Of a stretch of 64,000 bases of DNA, positions 19,687 through 61,619 are shown piece by piece. Each line of letters opens with the position of its first letter. Position 1 is the first letter of the stretch. Origin of the DNA: Bacteroidales bacterium (GTDB taxonomy: Bacteria; Bacteroidota; Bacteroidia; Bacteroidales; UBA1402); contig JAFSRR010000104.1 in NCBI GenBank assembly GCA_017446025.1, positions 44,026 to 108,025 on the forward strand, read 5' to 3'. Both the position numbers and the translations under genes were made by a program. The notes beneath the pieces are model-generated. The model saw only the letters and a program-made list of their open reading frames with translations, was not told where the DNA came from and did no database searches.

Positions 19687-19762
<76 letters not shown>

Positions 19763-19812
19763 AGCCGCGGAAGCGTCCGCAAAGAGGCTATCTTCTCAAT
19801 GTCAGAATGAAT

Positions 19813-19896
19813 ACCCAGGTGGTGGAATTGGTAGACACGCTACTTTGAGGGGGTAGTGGACATTAGTCCGTGTGAGTTCGAGTCTCATCCTGGGTA
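19813..19896 (+). tRNA. tRNA-Leu (anticodon GAG), class II with a long variable arm
   Basis: The acceptor stem is acccagg/cctgggt (A1:U72), the anticodon stem is ctact/ggtag with loop ttGAGgg, and the T arm is gtgag-ttcgagt-ctcat (one G-U pair). There is no encoded CCA. Confidence 0.8.
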
Positions 19897-19917
19897 CTTT
19901 CTCACATTTGACAGTAT

Positions 19918-20001
19918 GCCTAGATGGTGAAATTGGTAGACACGCTAGTTTCAGGTACTAGTGGCCGCAAGGCTGTGCAGGTTCGAGTCCTGTTCTGGGC
20001 A
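19918..20001 (+). tRNA. tRNA-Leu (anticodon CAG), class II
   Basis: The acceptor stem is gcctaga/tctgggc (one G-U pair), the anticodon stem is ctagt/actag with loop ttCAGgt, and the T arm is gcagg-ttcgagt-cctgt. Confidence 0.85.
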
Positions 20002-20009
20002 CTGAAAAA

Positions 20010-28592: not shown

Positions 28593-31500
28593 ATGAAAAC
28601 CAAAGCTTTGTTTATGTCTGTGCTGATGATCGGCTTGTTCCTGACCCCGGCATGGGCATTGATCACGGATCCGGAGGATTATGTGATCTATGATTCGGGC
28701 CAGCTCTGCGAGAGAGGCAGTTTCACCAAGCCTGATTTCTTCAGCGCTACGGGCTGGGAATTCGGAGAGGCCGCCTCTTCCCTCTCGGGAAACTCCTCCC
28801 TGGCTGCTTTCCTGGGCGCTTCATCAACGACCGACCCGCTCAACGCCATCCTGATCGGCAAGACCGACACGCTGGTGCTGACGCTCCCTGCCTGCGACTC
28901 CATCTATATCGAGTATTGGGGCACAGGTATGCGCGGTCTGAAAATCACCAACGACCACAACAACAGCTATGCCTGGCATTCGGTCAATGGTATGCGTGAC
29001 AGAGGCCGGGTCGGAGCCCGCTTCGATGCCAAGGATTCCATCCGCATTTATCTGACCGGCACCAAGTTGGAGGTGACCACCCCCTTGAACAACAACGAAA
29101 AGGTCAACATCAACCGCATCAAAATCTACGCCGGTATCGAGGACAGTGATGTGCCTGAATTCGACGGCACCATCGCCGGCTGGACCTTCCAGTATCATCC
29201 CAAAGCCAGCGGCACGGTCGATCTGACCTCGCTTGTCACTTCCGAAGAAGGCTTTGAATCGGCCAAATACGACATCTATGCTTCCGATCTGGGCGTGGTC
29301 CGTGGCAAACTGACGGCCTCCAAGGGCTTCTCGCTGGGTTACGACGGTACGGAACATGCCGCCCGTATCCAGGGCATGCAGGCCAACCAGTCGGTGGATT
29401 TCACCAAGGACGAGCAACACAAGGATTATTTCCAGATTGAAGTGCCGACTACCGGATTCCAGGACATGGAACTCCAGTTCAACTTCAGCCTGCTCTCTTC
29501 GGCTTCCTCGGCCGTTGTAGTGACCCGGGCTTCCGGTCAGACCGACTGGACGCTTGCCGGCAAGTTCGAACAGAACGGCAGCAAGACGTCGGTCAATGTG
29601 CCGCTCACTGGCATGGACAATGCAGCCACTACCCAGATTCGTATCATGCCCGACAACGGCACCTACGGCAACGGCGGCGAACTGATGATTTCCGCTTTGA
29701 AGATCAAAGGCTACGATGACTATTATAAGGTGAACGAAGGTGCTTTGAAGATCGCCTACATCAACAATGCCACCGACCGTATCCACATCCTGGACCGCGC
29801 AACCACCTCCGATTCGCTGGATACCAAGTTGTTGCCTGCCCTGTTGAAGAACGCCGACCTGGATGTCGACGTGCTGCACCAGCAACTTTGGCAGGACATC
29901 ACCGCCGAAAACATTCTTGAAAGACTGGCCGGTTACGACCTGGTCATCCTGAGTGATTTTGTTCCGGCCAACTCCTCCATTGCCCAGGCATGCCTGGCAC
30001 TCGTCGGTCACAAACCGCTGTTGAACTTGAGTGCCAATGTCTATAACAGCACTGCCTGGAACTGGAGTCCCGTTCAAACCAGTCAGGCCGTCCAGCTGGC
30101 TTCCAACAGCCACTTCACGTTCCATCCTGTTTTCAGTGATGTAAAACTGACCGAGCTGCTTACCGGCCAGCTGTTTGCCGACGCTCCTGAAGCCTTGTCC
30201 ACGACAGCAGGTTTCAGCGCCGCCCAGTACAACGGACAGGAAGGTTATATGATCGCAACGCCTGCCGGTGCCAGCGGTGTGGTCGCCATCCACGAGCTGA
30301 ACAGCAATCCGGCCGCCAAATACATGCTGGTGGCCCTGCCTGTGGCTGGCCAGCCCTATTTGAGCGACATTGCCCTGAAGATTGTCAACAACGCCATCCG
30401 CTATGTCAGCTCGGCCAATGTCTTTGTTGAGCCGCTGTTTACGATGGTGGCCGGCGGAGCCCTGGTTGAGAACATCTCTGAACTGCAGGGAGCCTTGGTG
30501 TATGACTATGCAGCCTTGAATCTCAAGCAGATCGTCATTGAAATGAAACCCAGTACCGATGCCAACGGCATTTATCTCCTGCCTTCCGAAGGCCTGACCA
30601 TCGATGCTTCGCTCAACAATGTGGTATTCCGCGGCAGCCAGGGCAAGGATGTCGTACTGTCCGGTCAGTTCAAGGGCAAGACGGCTATGAAGTTCAACGA
30701 CCTGATGTTTGACAACCTGATTCTGGCCCAGGACAAGTCGGGCAAGTTCATCTCATTGGCAGCCAACGACACCATTACCGGCAGCTTGACCATCCAGAAC
30801 TGCCGTGCCGGACGGGATGCCGATGTGGCCGGCACCCTGGTTGAAGTCAACGGCGGTGCACAACTCAGTCAGTTGACTGTCAACAACAATGCATTCGGAC
30901 AGAAGGCTGCCACCTTGCTGTGCAAAGTCACAGACGGCACAGTGGCCATAGATAATGTCACCGTCAAGGAGAACTGCTTCTACGGATCTTCCCTGCGTGA
31001 AATGATAGCCTTCGGCCAGACCGCATTCAGCAATGACCAGCTGGCCCTGGCTGTTGTCAACAACACTTTCTATGCCTGCGACGCTGCCAACAGCAACCTG
31101 ATCAGCTTTGAAAAGGCTCCTCAGATTCCTGTGACAACTCAGGTAAACAACAACTTGATGTTCCAGAGCAAGAACTCAGCCCTCAGTGCCGCTCCTTATC
31201 ACGGATTGCATTTCTATCAGCCTGCCGAAGGCTTGAAAGTCCAGGTATTGAACAACCTGTTGGCTGAGCCGGCAGAGAATGTCACGGCCTTCGGTGTATG
31301 GCCCGACACGCTCACCATTGAAAGCAAGACGCTTGATGCTGCCCGTTTCGGCGCCATCTTCCAGGGAGATGACATGGAGATATCCAAAGCTTCTGCTCTC
31401 TACACGGCTGGTGTCAACCACACGTATGTCGGTTCGGTCGATTGCTACGTGGATCGTGCCCAGGCCGGTGTCCTGACTGTCCACAACGTACCCGAACTGA

Positions 31501-32834
31501 AGGTGGCCCTGCAGATTTCCGTACCAGGTGACACCATCGAACTGGCCGCTTGCGACGAAGACAACGGCGTCTATCTGCTGGGTGCCTCCGGGTTGGTTTA
31601 TCCGCAGCATCACGGTTCGTTGCTGATCCGCAATGCCAAGGACGAAGAGCCCGTGCTGTTCGGCCGCATTTCTTCGAGCAACGGCGCCAAGCTGAGCAGC
31701 CTGGTCTTCGAAGGTTTGACCTGGCGCGACAATACCACCTATACAGGTTACAACCTGGAGACCTACTCTCCTTTCTATGTCAACGTCCGCGACTCGATTA
31801 TGGAGACCTGGACCGTGCGTCAGTGCAACTTCTACGATTTGGACAACCAGGAAATCTTCCGTACCAACACAGGTTGCAACTTTGCTGTCATCAAGGAACT
31901 CCGTTTCGAGAACTGCTACTTCGACAACATGGGTGGTTCCCGTCCTTGCGACGGCAAATCCATGGGTGCCCACTTCATCCAGTTTGTCAACAATTCGAGC
32001 ATCAAGTACGAGCTCGACAGCTTTGTCTTTGTACACAACATCGTGTCCAACTTCCACGGCAGCCAGCTGTTCAACATTGCCCGTCAGGCCTCGACTTCGC
32101 AGGATTCGACCATCAGCATCACCATCTGCCACAACCTGTTCTACAAGCTGGGCGGCCATGCTGAGAAGAACCGCAACTTCTTGGAGTTCACTTCCAACGC
32201 CAATGGCTTCGATATCAATATCGACATCAACGACAACATCTTCTATCGTCGCTGGAGCGACCAGTACTACCCCGTTTCCAACCTGGCCTTGTTTATGCCG
32301 GCCAAGGGACAGCAGGTTTCGATCAATTTGCTGAACAACTATTTCGACGGTGAGTATTACGATGGTGACGGAGAAGATCCCAATCCCGTCGCTCAGAAGA
32401 ACAAGAGCCAGAACCTCTATGTTTCCTCTGGTGACGAAAAGATGGTGAACCGCGGCAAGCCGCTCTTCTGGTTCGATCTGGAAATCGATGAACTCTTCGA
32501 AGATGAAAACACCTTCTTCATCGGCAACGAATCGCCTTTGTTCACAGCCGGCACCAACGGCGGCTATGTCGGTCCGAAAATCTGCTACAACATTGCTCCG
32601 GAGCCTGTTGACGCCATCCGCCCGAATCACAGCCGTGAGGGTCTGCAGGTTGTTGTCCGTGAGTCTCAGGTACTGCTCTTCACCAGCGAAACAGCTGTCG
32701 TGAACATCTACAATGTTTTTGGACAAACGGTTCGCAGTCTGCGTCTGGAAGCTGGCGAGCACAGCGTTGAAGGTCTGGCTCCCGGTCTCTATCTGATTAC
32801 CGACGGCAAGAAATCGGCCAAGGTGCTCTTCTAA
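28593..32834 (+). CDS. 1413-aa secreted multidomain protein with two right-handed beta-helix modules and a T9SS type-A C-terminal sorting domain; function unknown
   Basis: The signal peptide is MKTKALFMSVLMIGLFLTPAWA. Residues 23-385 are beta-rich. Residues 386-607 form an alpha/beta module (KIAYINN, YDLVILSDF and HKPLLNL). Two blocks of NNxF-type beta-helix rungs follow, and the second opens with LKVALQISVPGDTIEL at nt 31524. The C-terminus reads VVNIYNVFGQTVRSLRLEAGEHSVEGLAPGLYLITDGKKSAKVLF. Confidence 0.8.
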   Translation: MKTKALFMSVLMIGLFLTPAWALITDPEDYVIYDSGQLCERGSFTKPDFFSATGWEFGEAASSLSGNSSLAAFLGASSTTDPLNAILIGKTDTLVLTLPACDSIYIEYWGTGMRGLKITNDHNNSYAWHSVNGMRDRGRVGARFDAKDSIRIYLTGTKLEVTTPLNNNEKVNINRIKIYAGIEDSDVPEFDGTIAGWTFQYHPKASGTVDLTSLVTSEEGFESAKYDIYASDLGVVRGKLTASKGFSLGYDGTEHAARIQGMQANQSVDFTKDEQHKDYFQIEVPTTGFQDMELQFNFSLLSSASSAVVVTRASGQTDWTLAGKFEQNGSKTSVNVPLTGMDNAATTQIRIMPDNGTYGNGGELMISALKIKGYDDYYKVNEGALKIAYINNATDRIHILDRATTSDSLDTKLLPALLKNADLDVDVLHQQLWQDITAENILERLAGYDLVILSDFVPANSSIAQACLALVGHKPLLNLSANVYNSTAWNWSPVQTSQAVQLASNSHFTFHPVFSDVKLTELLTGQLFADAPEALSTTAGFSAAQYNGQEGYMIATPAGASGVVAIHELNSNPAAKYMLVALPVAGQPYLSDIALKIVNNAIRYVSSANVFVEPLFTMVAGGALVENISELQGALVYDYAALNLKQIVIEMKPSTDANGIYLLPSEGLTIDASLNNVVFRGSQGKDVVLSGQFKGKTAMKFNDLMFDNLILAQDKSGKFISLAANDTITGSLTIQNCRAGRDADVAGTLVEVNGGAQLSQLTVNNNAFGQKAATLLCKVTDGTVAIDNVTVKENCFYGSSLREMIAFGQTAFSNDQLALAVVNNTFYACDAANSNLISFEKAPQIPVTTQVNNNLMFQSKNSALSAAPYHGLHFYQPAEGLKVQVLNNLLAEPAENVTAFGVWPDTLTIESKTLDAARFGAIFQGDDMEISKASALYTAGVNHTYVGSVDCYVDRAQAGVLTVHNVPELKVALQISVPGDTIELAACDEDNGVYLLGASGLVYPQHHGSLLIRNAKDEEPVLFGRISSSNGAKLSSLVFEGLTWRDNTTYTGYNLETYSPFYVNVRDSIMETWTVRQCNFYDLDNQEIFRTNTGCNFAVIKELRFENCYFDNMGGSRPCDGKSMGAHFIQFVNNSSIKYELDSFVFVHNIVSNFHGSQLFNIARQASTSQDSTISITICHNLFYKLGGHAEKNRNFLEFTSNANGFDINIDINDNIFYRRWSDQYYPVSNLALFMPAKGQQVSINLLNNYFDGEYYDGDGEDPNPVAQKNKSQNLYVSSGDEKMVNRGKPLFWFDLEIDELFEDENTFFIGNESPLFTAGTNGGYVGPKICYNIAPEPVDAIRPNHSREGLQVVVRESQVLLFTSETAVVNIYNVFGQTVRSLRLEAGEHSVEGLAPGLYLITDGKKSAKVLF

Positions 32835-59176: not shown

Positions 59177-59252
<76 letters not shown>

Positions 59253-59360: not shown

Positions 59361-60572
59361 CTATTTGATGCCCAGTTTCTTGCGGATGTCCTTGGGCACG
59401 GCATCCTTGTGGACCAGGATATAAATGGTCTTGTAACGGACGAATGCCTCCGACACATACCAGATGCCCTGATACTTGCTGCTGGTGCCCCATGAGTTCT
59501 TGACCATGTAGTATGGCTTGCCGCTCTGGTCTTTGGCCAGGCCATAGATGAGCATGCCATGGTCGTCGGTGGTTTCCCAGTTGTCGTAGCCCTGCTGACG
59601 CATTTCCTCGGTCACTTCCATCTCAGGCAGCGGCTTGGCCGTGAGTTCCTTGCGCTTGTCGGCGGCCGACAGTCCCAGCCAATGGGCCATGTCACTGCCG
59701 GTGAGATCGGCTCCCTTGCCTTCATCGACCACCACGCCGATACCCTGGCGGCTGAAGCCCGTTTCGCTCACATCGGCGCCCCAGGCGATGGTATAGCCCT
59801 GGTTGATGGCATAGGAGAACACTTGCATGAACTCGTCGAGCGGCAGATTGTACGACTGGGCCTGACGCCAGTTGTCCTGGATCTCCAGGGCGAAAGTGGT
59901 ATAAAAGGGATGGTGTGTGAAAGATGTCAGCGACACATAGTCGTCCATATTGAGACCCAGCGACTCGGCATAGGACTTCGGGGTGTATTTCTTGCCTTTG
60001 TAAACGAATTCCTCGGGGCAAACACCCAAATAGGCGTCGTAAATACCTTTTAATCCGTTCTTCCAGACAGGGGTGAGCTTTTTGGGATTGCTGGCCAGCA
60101 AGGCCTTGAGATAGCCCTCGGCCACAGCATCAAGTTCGTTGTGGACAGGCAGCGTGTCACCGTAAAGGATGCCAGGCATCACCTCCTGGGGCACCATGCC
60201 GTAGTTGCGCCAGCAATAGGCCACATCGAAGAAGCTGCCGCCGGGTGAGAACGACACGTCGCCATGCAACCGCACAGTGCGCTCTGCCCGGTCTTCCATG
60301 GTCTTGTGCACCACAAACATTTCCGACAGATCATACTCTCCTTTGCCCAGCCGGAGGAGCTCCGACTCAAAGAAACCGATCGACGAGAAACTCCAGCACG
60401 TGCTCGAACGGTTCTGGTTCTTCACCGTCGTGATGGGATTCTCCTTGACGGTGGTAAACTGGAAGCCTTCTTCCTGCGTTTTTTTCTGCTCTTCCTGAGC
60501 GGCCGCTGGCAAGGTCGGGACTGTGGCCAGCAGGAAAGCCGTCACTTTGGCGAAACGGGATATTTTTTTCAT
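59361..60572 (-). CDS. Secreted C1-family cysteine peptidase (aminopeptidase C / bleomycin hydrolase-like)
   Basis: 403 aa from ATG 60572. The signal peptide is MKKISRFAKVTAFLLATVPTLPAAAQ. The catalytic Cys motif is QNRSSTCWSFSS, and a DDHGMLIYG His region and KNSWG are present. Confidence 0.75.
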   Translation of the reverse strand: MKKISRFAKVTAFLLATVPTLPAAAQEEQKKTQEEGFQFTTVKENPITTVKNQNRSSTCWSFSSIGFFESELLRLGKGEYDLSEMFVVHKTMEDRAERTVRLHGDVSFSPGGSFFDVAYCWRNYGMVPQEVMPGILYGDTLPVHNELDAVAEGYLKALLASNPKKLTPVWKNGLKGIYDAYLGVCPEEFVYKGKKYTPKSYAESLGLNMDDYVSLTSFTHHPFYTTFALEIQDNWRQAQSYNLPLDEFMQVFSYAINQGYTIAWGADVSETGFSRQGIGVVVDEGKGADLTGSDMAHWLGLSAADKRKELTAKPLPEMEVTEEMRQQGYDNWETTDDHGMLIYGLAKDQSGKPYYMVKNSWGTSSKYQGIWYVSEAFVRYKTIYILVHKDAVPKDIRKKLGIK

Positions 60573-60598
60573 ACTGTGTATTTTGTTTGATTGTGGCA

Positions 60599-60606
60599 CA
60601 AAGATA
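60599..60606 (-). promoter_or_regulatory. Candidate -7 box for the C1 peptidase gene
   Basis: The minus strand reads TATCTTTG, 27 nt upstream of ATG 60572. No properly spaced -33 element is present. Confidence 0.3.
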
Positions 60607-60722
60607 ATCATCTTCGCCTAATAAGAATCCATTCAAAGATTTTCTTTTCCACAGCCCGGCAAAAGCCGTCATCAGACAGGTAAAATCGTCAAACCACCCG
60701 GTAAATCACACAAGCAAATTTA

Positions 60723-60828
60723 ATTGTGGGTTCATTGTAGGTTCTTTGTGGGTTTATTGTAGGTACATTGAAGGTTCATTGTGGGTTCATTGTGGGTTTA
60801 TTGTAGGTTCATTGAAGGTAGATTGTCG
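60723..60828. repeat. Degenerate 11-bp tandem repeat array, about 9.6 units, consensus ATTGTGGGTTC
   Basis: Units read in register from 60723: attgtgggttc, attgtaggttc, tttgtgggttt, attgtaggtac, attgaaggttc, attgtgggttc, attgtgggttt, attgtaggttc, attgaaggtag, attgtcg. The array is non-coding. Confidence 0.9.
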
Positions 60829-60836
60829 ATGAGTTT

Positions 60837-61619
60837 TTGAACGGCAGAGACATCATATTTGGACTGTACAAGGAAATCTTGCTTTTTGATGTATTTCGTT
60901 CGGTGTTTTTGATGTGCTTTATTCAATACTTCGACTACTACAACAACCCAACCAGTCCCATTATTGCCTATTACGCTCCCGCCTGGGCGACAGATGCCGA
61001 TATTGCCGCCTGGCGGGCCGACGACCCCTACGGACAGAAAGCCAACACCATTATTACGAAGACCACGCTGGAGAATGTCGGTATCGGGCCCTCCACTCAG
61101 GTGAACGCCACCTGGAAAGAGCGGCGTTCGATGGACCTGGGCGTTCCCTGTATCAAGAAGTTCGACGACTATACAGCTGCTTCCATCGCCAACCGTTCCT
61201 CGTCGTGTAGCACCCACGATGTAGTTCTTTCCCGTCTTGGCGAAGCATACCTGATTGCTGCAGAAGCATACCTTCAGTGCAACGACAGGCTCAAGGCCGC
61301 CGACATGATCAACAAACTGCGTCAGCGTCCGGGCACTGTCAAGACCGGATTCGAAGCTGCCATGAATGTGACTGCCGGCGATATCACCATCGACTTCATC
61401 CTGGACGAACGAGCCCGCGAAATGGCCGGTGAATATGTCCGTTATACTGATCTGAAACGTACCCACAAGCTGGTTGAATATGTAACAGCCTACAATGAGG
61501 ACGGCGTCACGGATGCACAGATGAAGGGCGACGACGGAAAGTACAAGATACTGCGTCCGATTCCACAGGATGCTCTCGACAAGAACCAAACCAAGGTCGC
61601 ACAGAATCCCGGCTATTGA
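60837..61619 (+). pseudogene. 5'-truncated SusD/RagB-family gene remnant (C-terminal ~230 aa only), with no adjacent susC
   Basis: The C-terminal half of the SusD family is recognisable: SRLGEAYLIAAEAYL, DFILDERAREMAGEYVRYTDLKRT and ILRPIPQDALDKNQTKVAQNPGY at the very end. Full-length members are about 500-600 aa. The apparent TTG start and first ~25 codons look non-homologous. Confidence 0.7.

What the first reader, a model, noticed from the sequence alone, without database searches (positions are those of the whole stretch)
60723..60828. Ten-unit degenerate 11-bp tandem array (ATTGTGGGTTC-like) at the truncation point of a susD remnant
Nine full units and a partial tenth follow each other without spacers. 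In the nine full units the positions TTG-N-(A/G)GGT are nearly invariant, while the flanks drift (gggttc, aggttc, gggttt, aggtac, aggtag). An 11-bp period is close to one helical turn, so every conserved core faces the same side of the duplex. That arrangement is expected for cooperative binding of a protein array or for intrinsically bent DNA. It is not coding, because the unit length is not a multiple of 3 and stops occur in several frames. It is not a CRISPR array, because there are no spacers. The degeneracy argues against a recent slippage expansion. The array lies in a 264-bp AT-richer gap between the C1 peptidase promoter region and the point where SusD homology starts abruptly. The upstream susC and about half of susD are absent. 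It could be a recombination or rearrangement scar, the binding array of an unknown site-specific DNA-binding protein, or the end of a degraded mobile element. I know of no described Bacteroidota element with this repeat.
Basis: partly seen in the sequence, partly recalled or inferred. Interest (0 to 1): 0.7.

Follow-up and report, generated by a model that had tools for sequence, protein, structure and literature searches.

The report
Dispersed 11-bp repeat upstream of pepC
A real, non-coding array of nine 11-bp repeats lies upstream of an aminopeptidase gene in an uncultured rumen Bacteroidales genome; it is one copy of a small 'leader + repeat' element family, not a scar of the broken susD gene beside it, and what it does is untested.

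Summary
The array is real: window 60723-60828, nine 11-bp units plus a partial tenth, core TTG-N-R-GGT invariant, and found nowhere else in the window.

It is not a product of the susD truncation. A sister species (C1 peptidase/pepC 92% identical) has the same array at the same place and in the same orientation upstream of pepC, with 8 units instead of 9. There the far flank is yccF, not susD. The synteny and susD breakpoint lies at about 60921-60926, some 95 bp beyond the array.

The sister genome holds a second array with the same core, in the tRNA-Pro/tRNA-Phe spacer. It is part of a ~163-bp insertion that three related lineages lack. It shares a weakly similar ~65-bp 'leader' with the pepC copy. 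Two strains differ in unit number (4.5 versus 8.5).

I found no coding potential, no Rfam match, no folded RNA, no adjacent transposase or integrase, and no terminal inverted repeats.

Best reading: a copy of a small dispersed leader-plus-minisatellite element, comparable in concept to BrickBuilt of Porphyromonas gingivalis, retained in the pepC upstream region. It may act as a phased, curved or protein-binding module.

The pepC copy diverges far less than other spacers (93% versus 65% identity). A recombination tract could explain that as well as selection. Interest is low to moderate.

The parts
60723..60828 (.). 11-bp tandem array: nine full units plus a partial tenth. On the + strand the unit is (A/T)TTG-W-R-GGT-W-N; on the pepC-sense (-) strand it is ACC-Y-W-CAA-W-R-A. 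There is a 44-bp higher-order structure.
   Evidence: The array is identical in two other assemblies of the same species. The orthologous array has 8 units in the sister species.
60653..60722 (.). 'Leader': non-repetitive flank on the pepC side of the array. It is weakly similar to the flank of the second array copy (L030:3879-3937).
   Evidence: Local alignment score 15 against 7.7 +/- 1.5 in shuffles (2 of 2000 reach it); 0.15% of random genomic segments reach it. 90% identical to the sister species.
60573..60652 (-). Promoter-proximal region of pepC. It contains a Bacteroidetes-type -7 box, TATCTTTG, at 60599-60606 on the - strand. The transcription start is inferred at about 60592, which puts the array at about -131 to -236.
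   Evidence: Sequence read. 80 of 80 bases are identical to the sister species. The promoter consensus TAnnTTTG comes from my own knowledge (Bayley et al. 2000) and was not tested here.
60829..60882 (.). 54-60-bp segment present in the window species only. It separates the array from the distal conserved block and is either an insertion here or a deletion in the sister.
   Evidence: Alignment A4; 54 gap columns.
60883..60923 (.). Distal conserved block containing two copies of TTTTTGATGT, 23 bp apart. This is the last sequence shared with the sister species.
   Evidence: Repeat family D3. 37 of 39 bases identical to the sister, where the block abuts the yccF stop codon.
60921..60926 (.). Junction. 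Homology to the sister's pepC upstream region ends here, and homology to intact susD of relatives begins here.
59361..60572 (-). pepC (C1-family aminopeptidase, 403 aa), the gene downstream of the element.
   Evidence: Pfam Peptidase_C1_2. P0121 is 100% identical and P0122 92%.
60926..61619 (+). SusD C-terminal remnant. This is context and not part of the element.

Best explanation
The array is the repeat core of a small, non-coding 'leader + 11-bp minisatellite' element that occurs at more than one place in this lineage of rumen Bacteroidales. The pepC copy was already present in the common ancestor of the window species and its sister species. It lies 151-256 bp upstream of the pepC start codon. 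It has been kept there while the DNA beyond it was rearranged: a susD fragment in one species, and yccF plus an accessory island in the other.

Array length changes by whole units or by 22/44-bp blocks, most likely through slipped-strand mispairing or unequal recombination. Such changes preserve the helical phase.

How new copies arise is unknown; no transposase, terminal inverted repeats or target duplication were found.

Its most likely effect, which is inferred and not shown, is architectural. Identical short sites repeated every 11 bp give a curved stretch of DNA and a same-face platform for cooperative protein binding upstream of the promoter on the leader side (pepC here; tRNA-Pro at the second locus).
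For: Shown:
(1) The same array, in the same position and orientation upstream of pepC, occurs in the sister species. It has 8 rather than 9 units, homologous flanks on both sides, and a different far flank.
(2) The sister genome has a second array with the same core (ACCTTCAAAGA/ACCCACAAAGA) in the tRNA-Pro/tRNA-Phe spacer. That spacer is 135-139 bp and has no array in relatives L240, L241 and L243. L245/L246 also lack it. So the ~163-bp leader+array+tail is most parsimoniously an insertion.
(3) The ~65-bp flank next to the array is similar at the two loci (z about 4-5; 2 of 2000 and 8 of 2000 shuffles; 0.15% of genomic controls).
(4) The tRNA copy has 4.5 units in one strain and 8.5 in another. 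The pepC copy differs by units between species and shows a 44-bp block duplication.
(5) There is no coding frame, no Rfam match and no RNA fold better than shuffles on either strand.
(6) The wedge model predicts a bend of ~71 degrees over 106 bp, in the top 1% of windows.
(7) The pepC copy is 93% identical between species, against 65% for other spacers pooled (p = 3e-9). All 6-7 substitutions fall at the variable unit positions.

Concept precedent: BrickBuilt of P. gingivalis, which has a leader, a 23-nt minisatellite and a tail, is always intergenic, occurs 19 times, and has promoter activity (PMC4596501).
Against: The family size is therefore unknown.

The leader similarity is weak: about 60% identity with gaps, and invisible to blastn-short. 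The tails are not similar. I saw no terminal inverted repeats or target-site duplication, and no mobilising enzyme. The gene next to the second copy is an outer-membrane-type protein, not a transposase.

The low divergence of the pepC copy may not reflect selection. The first 90 bp of the pepC CDS are also 88/90 identical (p = 1e-4 against the rest of the CDS). This fits a recombination tract, 60483-60925, lying next to the variable flank.

The curvature is not unit-specific. Arrays of shuffled 11-mers give 72 +/- 28 degrees. No expression or binding data exist.
Confidence: 0.55

Rival explanations
1. A dedicated operator array. The nine head-to-tail sites evolved, or are maintained, as the binding platform of a specific DNA-binding protein that oligomerises along one face of the helix. 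It would resemble PhoB/OmpR-type winged-helix regulators on 11-bp direct repeats. The protein would control pepC, and the same regulator would control the tRNA-Pro promoter at the second locus.
For: The period is 11 bp. Six core positions (ACC..CAA) are invariant in 24 units from three arrays, and variation is confined to five positions. The two species share an identical consensus unit despite 31% divergence at third codon positions. Indels are whole units, which preserves phase. Orientation relative to the leader-side promoter is the same at both loci, and the distance upstream is similar. One extra unit-like site, CCACAATCA, lies next to the pepC -7 box (repeat family D5).
Against: No candidate regulator is conserved next to both loci. 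The OmpR-type pair near pepC is present in one sister strain only. The array lies far upstream (-131 to -236), not over the promoter. Unit number doubles between strains at the tRNA locus, which is unusual for a tuned operator. The conservation could result from a recombination tract. A shared non-repeat leader and an insertion origin fit copying better than in-place evolution.
Confidence: 0.22
2. A selectively neutral local minisatellite that arose in place upstream of pepC by slippage and is simply inherited. The second array would be an independent, coincidental expansion.
For: 11-bp G/T-rich tandem arrays are common in many phyla: 119+ and 109 loci came from two loose pattern scans. Units turn over between species. 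No function has been shown.
Against: Two arrays in one genome share the same 8-base core and also a similar non-repeat flank. One of them is an insertion of leader plus array together. The pepC copy diverges 5-fold less than other spacers.
Confidence: 0.15
3. A rearrangement scar, or the terminal repeat of an IS, ICE or transposon that broke susD.
For: The array lies ~95 bp from the point where susD homology and synteny with the sister species end. Both known copies sit beside variable regions.
Against: The array and both its flanks exist in the sister species, which has no susD there. There is no transposase, integrase or inverted partner anywhere in the 64-kb window, and the 28 kb to the left is housekeeping DNA. 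There was no match in the phage collection and only an unrelated analogue in plasmids.
Confidence: 0.03
4. A replication or partition site: iterons, a parC-like centromere, or an array of low-affinity DnaA boxes.
For: The architecture resembles R1 parC (ten 11-bp repeats) and the 11-bp-spaced DnaA sites of E. coli oriC (my own knowledge). The unit GAACCCACA matches the DnaA box TTATCCACA at 6 of 9 positions. A Pseudomonas plasmid has comparable 11-bp arrays 1.1 kb from its rep gene.
Against: There are no par, rep or dnaA genes beside either copy. In the sister species genes run through the site in one direction, so it is not a divergence point. The other unit types (CCTACA, CCTTCA) match the DnaA box worse.
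Confidence: 0.03

Closest known systems
BrickBuilt MITE of Porphyromonas gingivalis (Klein et al. 2015, PMC4596501)
   Same: It is from the same phylum and always intergenic. It has an imperfect tandem minisatellite without spacers, with conserved and variable positions within the unit. It has non-repeat 'leader' and 'tail' flanks, the copy number of units differs between loci and strains, and it lies tens to hundreds of bp from neighbouring genes. Effects on transcription have been proposed.
   Different: The unit is 23 nt, not 11. BrickBuilt has 19 copies per genome with small terminal inverted repeats. Here only 2 loci are known, no inverted-repeat ends or target duplications were seen, the tails are not shared, and there is no sequence similarity.
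Pho boxes and other OmpR/PhoB-family operator arrays
   Same: Head-to-tail direct repeats with an 11-bp period and a conserved core of 6-8 bp plus 3-5 variable bases. Several repeats in a row are bound cooperatively on one face of the DNA (my own knowledge).
   Different: Pho boxes number 2-8 repeats and overlap or replace the -35 region. This array has 9 repeats far upstream. The core sequence is different, and no cognate regulator has been identified.
parC centromere of plasmid R1, and plasmid iterons
   Same: Ten 11-bp direct repeats bound cooperatively by one protein (my own knowledge). A Pseudomonas plasmid in PLSDB shows similar G/T-rich 11-bp arrays near its rep gene.
   Different: This array is chromosomal, has no parM/parR or rep genes beside it, and lies upstream of housekeeping genes.
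Palindromic (GAGGGTTCATT)n repeat elements of Paludibacter-like genomes
   Same: The 11-nt unit is nearly the same (ATTGAGGGTTC versus ATTGTGGGTTC). They are found in Bacteroidales, are intergenic, and have many copies per genome.
   Different: Those arrays are followed at once by their own inverted complement, giving long hairpins like REP elements or terminators. The array here has no inverted partner. The search pattern itself selected for the shared bases, so the likeness is not evidence of common descent.
Bacterial VNTR or minisatellite loci in promoter regions
   Same: Unit number changes by slippage (4.5 versus 8.5 between strains; 9 versus 8 between species).
   Different: Classic contingency loci use perfect short units that lie between promoter elements or in coding sequence. 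The pepC copy is degenerate, far upstream, and invariant in 3-4 assemblies per species.

Membership tests
MITE with internal minisatellite (BrickBuilt-like) | Several dispersed copies in one genome | tested here: inconclusive
   Two loci were found in the sister genome: upstream of pepC and in the tRNA-Pro/Phe spacer. The full copy number could not be obtained because scans are capped.
MITE with internal minisatellite (BrickBuilt-like) | Filled versus empty site, showing insertion | tested here: met
   The tRNA spacer is 135-139 bp without an array in L240, L241 and L243, and 299 bp with leader+array+tail in L030 and L244.
MITE with internal minisatellite (BrickBuilt-like) | Terminal inverted repeats and target-site duplication | tested here: not met
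   None is recognisable at the L030 insertion boundaries. Boundaries are uncertain by about 10 bp because the flanking spacer is itself diverged. The 16-nt inverted pair around the window array (I2) is absent from the sister species.
MITE with internal minisatellite (BrickBuilt-like) | Shared non-repeat leader and tail | tested here: inconclusive
   The leader is similar (z about 4-5). The tail is not (z = -0.4). blastn-short finds nothing.
CRISPR array | Repeats separated by unique spacers | tested here: not met
   Units abut head to tail with no spacers.
IS/ICE/transposon terminal repeats | Adjacent transposase or integrase, and a matching inverted end | tested here: not met
   The neighbours are pepC, a susD remnant, an AraC-type regulator and a ferritin-like gene. 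The 28 kb to the left is housekeeping DNA. No reverse-strand copy of the unit exists in the 64 kb.
OmpR/PhoB-type operator (Pho-box-like) | Head-to-tail direct repeats at 10-11 bp with a conserved core | tested here: met
   The period is 11 bp and the core ACC..CAA is invariant in 24 units.
OmpR/PhoB-type operator (Pho-box-like) | Binding by a cognate response regulator, at a position that contacts RNA polymerase | not testable with these tools
   No conserved regulator lies beside both loci. The array is at about -131 to -236 from the inferred start.
Plasmid centromere (parC) or iterons | Adjacent partition or replication genes | tested here: not met
   None at either locus.
VNTR / minisatellite | Unit-number variation among strains | tested here: met
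   The tRNA copy has 4.5 units in L030 and 8.5 in L244. The pepC copy has 9 versus 8 units between species, but is invariant within each species across 3 and 4 assemblies.
Structured non-coding RNA | Rfam match, or folding better than shuffled sequence | tested here: not met
   No Rfam match at E <= 1. z-scores are +0.61 and -0.39.

The most novel reading that the evidence does not exclude
The leader+array is a portable promoter-upstream cassette. Its 11-bp units would be the binding sites of an as yet unknown Bacteroidales DNA-binding protein that polymerises head to tail along one face of the helix. By inserting upstream of promoters (pepC, tRNA-Pro) the cassette would bring new genes under that protein's control, and unit-number changes would tune the response.
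Probability: 0.12. Interest if true: 0.6.

Novelty: new member of a known kind. Interest (0 to 1): 0.3.

Why it matters
If the element only drifts, it is one more bacterial minisatellite. Its value is then practical: a strain marker for an uncultured rumen lineage, and a warning that tandem repeats near pseudogene breakpoints need not be scars.

If the low divergence of the pepC copy reflects selection, it would be an example of a repeat element co-opted as upstream promoter architecture in Bacteroidota. Promoter-upstream control is poorly known in that phylum. It would also offer a simple test system, namely unit-number and half-turn phasing series.

Tried and rejected
(1) A 1413-aa ORF in the window (28593-32834) has the same length as the gene upstream of the intact susC/susD in relative L124. 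I suspected a 28-kb insertion or inversion, but the proteins are unrelated and the intervening DNA is housekeeping.

(2) Loose pattern scans of genome and metagenome collections returned mostly unrelated 11-bp arrays from many phyla, plus a Paludibacter-type hairpin family. They say nothing about homology, because the pattern fixes most of the shared bases.

(3) I looked for an association with tRNA genes among other Bacteroidales arrays. There is none.

(4) Curvature as a unit-specific property: rejected, because shuffled-unit arrays bend equally.

(5) Structured RNA or Rfam family: none.

(6) Phage, plasmid and viral-contig matches: none that are related.

(7) The gene beside the second copy as a possible transposase: it is an outer-membrane-like protein.

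(8) Similarity between the tail and the distal block at the two loci: none.

(9) An outward promoter at the array-leader junction. TAAATTTG is a perfect -7 box in the window, but the sister has GAAATTTG and the second copy has CGAATTTG, so it is not conserved.

(10) A sigma-70-type hit inside the array is not relevant to Bacteroidetes promoters.

Full report
**1.

Tandem Repeats Finder reports window 60723-60819 with period 11, 8.8 copies, 81% matches and score 124. It also reports a 44-bp higher-order period at 60729-60826 (2.2 copies, 90%, score 161). Reading the sequence gives nine full units and a partial tenth (ATTGTCG). TTG-N-R-GGT is invariant. On the opposite strand the unit reads ACC-Y-W-CAA-W-R-A.

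The unit with up to one mismatch occurs 7 times against 1.76 expected. A two-unit pattern occurs 8 times against 0.12 expected. All matches lie inside the array, on one strand only, and nowhere else in the 64 kb.

- a C1-family aminopeptidase (pepC) at 59361-60572(-);
- a SusD C-terminal remnant on the + strand (Pfam SusD_RagB positions 99-297 of 297);
- an AraC-type regulator on the - strand;
- a ferritin-like gene on the + strand.

**2. Where susD breaks**

Protein and DNA alignments with relatives that have susC and susD show that homology starts at about window 60926 (QYFDYY...). About 231 of ~575 residues remain. The array ends 95 bp before this point. Two further assemblies of the same species (L120, L121; rumen metagenomes) have the same gene order and a 100% identical intergenic region.

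**3. The array is older than the truncation**

The closest other pepC (P0122, 92% identity) comes from MAG RGIG4402 (GCA_017464285.1) and three other assemblies (L126-L129). Downstream of pepC the gene order matches the window: tRNA-Gly, SDR, AsnC-type regulator, Cys/Met enzyme, PALP enzyme, Pel9A-like protein, gnd. Upstream it does not. The sister has yccF, a HigB/HTH pair and other accessory genes, all on the pepC strand.

Alignment A4 shows the same array in the same place and orientation, with 8 units instead of 9. On one side are 150 bp of homologous sequence reaching to the pepC ATG. On the other is a homologous 40-bp block (window 60883-60923), which in the sister abuts the yccF stop codon. 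The window has an extra 54-60 bp between the array and that block.

Homology with the sister ends at about 60921-60925, where susD homology begins. So the array, its flanks and the distal block form the ancestral pepC upstream region. The rearrangement joined foreign DNA to the outer edge of that region. The 'scar' reading is refuted.

No transposase, integrase or inverted copy of the unit exists in the window, and the 28 kb to the left is housekeeping DNA such as dnaN, murB, glnA, coaBC, recN and gnd.

**4. A second copy, and evidence of insertion**

The capped genome scan happened to return another contig of the same sister MAG (L030). That contig carries GGTTCTTTGAAGGTTCTTTGTGGGTTCTTTGAAGGTTCTTTGTGG. 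On the other strand this is ACCTTCAAAGA/ACCCACAAAGA, the same core. It lies in the divergent spacer between tRNA-Pro(-) and tRNA-Phe(+), next to serS.

I used SerS to fetch the locus from relatives:
- L240 (SerS 96%) and L241/L243 (89%) have the same tRNA pair with a 135-139-bp spacer and no array.
- L245/L246 (97%) lack the array as well; tRNA-Phe is replaced there.
- L030 has a ~163-bp extra segment (alignment A6).
- L244, a second strain of the sister species (SerS 99%), has the same insertion with 8.5 units instead of 4.5. The difference is two 22-bp double units.

One insertion in the sister lineage is more parsimonious than repeated precise losses.

The ~65 bp next to the array on one side (the 'leader') is similar between the pepC locus (window 60653-60720) and the insertion. 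The local score is 15 against 7.7 +/- 1.5 in shuffles (2 of 2000 reach it). For the sister's own pepC leader, 8 of 2000 shuffles reach the score. Only 0.15% of random genomic segments score as well. This similarity is weak, about 60% identity with gaps, and blastn-short misses it. The sequences on the other side are not similar.

At both loci the leader faces a minus-strand gene whose Bacteroidetes-type -7 box lies 45-70 bp from the leader. These boxes are TATCTTTG at window 60599-60606 and TACCTTTG at L030 3804-3811. The consensus is from my own knowledge.

**5. What it is not**

- There is no reading frame, because the period is not a multiple of 3 and the region is intergenic in the sister.
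- There are no spacers, so it is not a CRISPR array.
- There is no Rfam match at E <= 1.
- Neither strand folds better than shuffles (z = +0.61 and -0.39).
- There is no match in the phage collection. Two unrelated high-GC arrays turned up in viral contigs.
- One plasmid hit is an analogue, not a relative: 11-bp arrays between inverted repeats, 1.1 kb from the rep gene of a Pseudomonas plasmid.
- The gene beside the second copy is an outer-membrane-type protein, not a transposase.

**6. Constraint or recombination?**

Identity between the window and the sister species, feature by feature:

| Feature | Identity |
|---|---|
| Promoter-proximal 80 bp | 100% |
| Leader | 90% |
| Array | 93% (plus whole-unit gaps) |
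| Distal block | 95% |
| Five other spacers in the same syntenic block | 51-74% (pooled 65%) |
| Coding sequences | 78-87% |
| pepC third codon positions | 69% |

The array differs from the other spacers at p = 3e-9. All 6-7 substitutions in the array fall at the five variable unit positions and none in ACC..CAA. This has a probability of 0.004-0.009 if substitutions were spread evenly, but the positions were defined after the fact. The consensus unit is the same in both species. All this fits purifying selection.

The first 90 bp of the pepC CDS are also 88/90 identical, against 84.5% for the rest (p = 1e-4). Synonymous sites should not be that constrained. A recombination tract running from about 60483 to the variable flank is therefore a real alternative. 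I cannot separate the two with the data available.

**7. Physical properties**

A dinucleotide wedge model, with Bolshoy-Trifonov parameters recalled from memory, predicts a bend of ~71 degrees over the 106 bp. That is the top 1% of windows in this sequence. Arrays built from shuffled 11-mers bend equally (72 +/- 28 degrees). Curvature therefore follows from the 11-bp period and not from this particular unit.

**8. Interpretation**

The facts fit best a small dispersed 'leader + 11-bp minisatellite' element.
- One old copy is retained upstream of pepC. It is degenerate, shows a 44-bp block duplication, has 9 versus 8 units between species, and is invariant in 3 and 4 assemblies within each species.
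- One young copy is inserted in a tRNA spacer. It is a perfect 22-bp double unit and varies between strains.

The nearest described thing is BrickBuilt of P. gingivalis. BrickBuilt has a leader, a 23-nt minisatellite and a tail. It occurs at 19 intergenic sites and has promoter activity (PMC4596501). There is no sequence similarity, and the defining terminal inverted repeats were not found here. I therefore call this a comparable element and not a member of that family.

The following are inferred and not shown: growth and shrinkage by slippage or unequal recombination, and any effect on the adjacent promoter through curvature or cooperative binding. A dedicated operator for an unknown head-to-tail binding protein, like Pho boxes in geometry, remains possible. 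It is compatible with the element having been co-opted.

**9. Limits**

- The genome and metagenome scans are capped.
- No outgroup with an alignable pepC upstream region was available; the next pepC is 77% identical, with different synteny.
- The promoter and start site are predicted from a consensus.
- No expression or binding data exist.

**10. Verdict**

The scar and terminal-repeat interpretations are rejected. The 'binding array' idea is still open. This is a new member of a known kind of element, namely minisatellite-bearing intergenic repeats. Interest is low to moderate.

Noticed in passing
window 60483-60652: The 80 bp upstream of the pepC ATG are 100% identical to the sister species and the first 90 bp of the CDS are 88/90 identical. 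The rest of the gene is 84.5% identical and other spacers 51-74%. This is either an unusually constrained promoter and 5' region, or the end of a recombination tract next to the variable flank.
   Followed up: partly
window 60883-60923: A conserved 40-bp block with two copies of TTTTTGATGT, 23 bp apart. It is 95% identical in the sister species, where it directly follows the yccF stop codon. It marks the outer edge of the shared pepC upstream region. Function unknown.
   Followed up: partly
window 60586-60596: A single unit-like site (TTTGATTGTGG; CCACAATCA on the pepC strand) lies immediately downstream of the predicted -7 box of pepC, 130 bp from the array. A 7-mer match in 150 bp is expected about 0.02 times by chance.
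   Followed up: no
window 60912-61619: The susD fragment keeps an open frame and is annotated as a 235-aa RagB/SusD protein. It is 100% identical in three assemblies. It has no susC partner and no N-terminal half. Whether it is expressed is unknown.
   Followed up: partly
window 59177-59252: tRNA-Gly(GCC) lies on the - strand between pepC and the SDR gene. It is 100% identical in the sister species, while the spacers on either side are 66-71% identical. A second tRNA-Gly(GCC) and two tRNA-Leu lie at 19687-20002.
   Followed up: yes
L003, L024, L026, L028, L041, L046, L062, L111 (Paludibacter sp. STB_57) and many of the JGI contigs L131-L239: An abundant family of long imperfect palindromes. 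An array of (GAGGGTTCATT)/(GAGGGTTGAGA) units is followed by a short loop and then the inverted complement of the array. Contigs have 32-42% GC and one MAG has at least 8 copies. They look like REP- or terminator-type hairpin elements built from 11-nt modules.
   Followed up: partly
L247 2010-2190 (Pseudomonas sp. TMP25 plasmid pPTMP25-1, NZ_CP150892.1): Two adjoining unannotated 11-bp tandem arrays, (CGCTGTTTATT)n and (GGGTKTGTTGT)n. They are framed by a ~35-bp inverted repeat and lie 1.1 kb from the replication initiator gene. They are probably iterons or a centromere.
   Followed up: no
L126 1-9000 versus L127 1-5200: Two strains of the sister species differ upstream of the HigB/HTH pair. 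One has an intact OmpR-type regulator plus histidine kinase. The other has kinase fragments with LacI-type, HipA, Fic and UmuCD genes. The DNA beyond the pepC element is a plasticity zone in this lineage.
   Followed up: no
L243 2090-3199; L241 2064-3553; L245 1-2327: The tRNA-Phe side of the serS/tRNA-Pro locus carries different cargo in different relatives: a tyrosine integrase with an Arm-DNA-binding domain, a HipAB module, or an RHS/SpvB toxin gene that replaces tRNA-Phe. This is a second variable region adjoining a copy of the element.
   Followed up: no
L122 8997-10714; L124 8754-10489; L123 3315-5064: In three relatives the full-length susD is called as two overlapping ORFs. In L123 this is due to a run of N. 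In the other two it looks like a frameshift, either real or an assembly error. It explains why many database 'SusD' hits are ~160-240 aa.
   Followed up: partly
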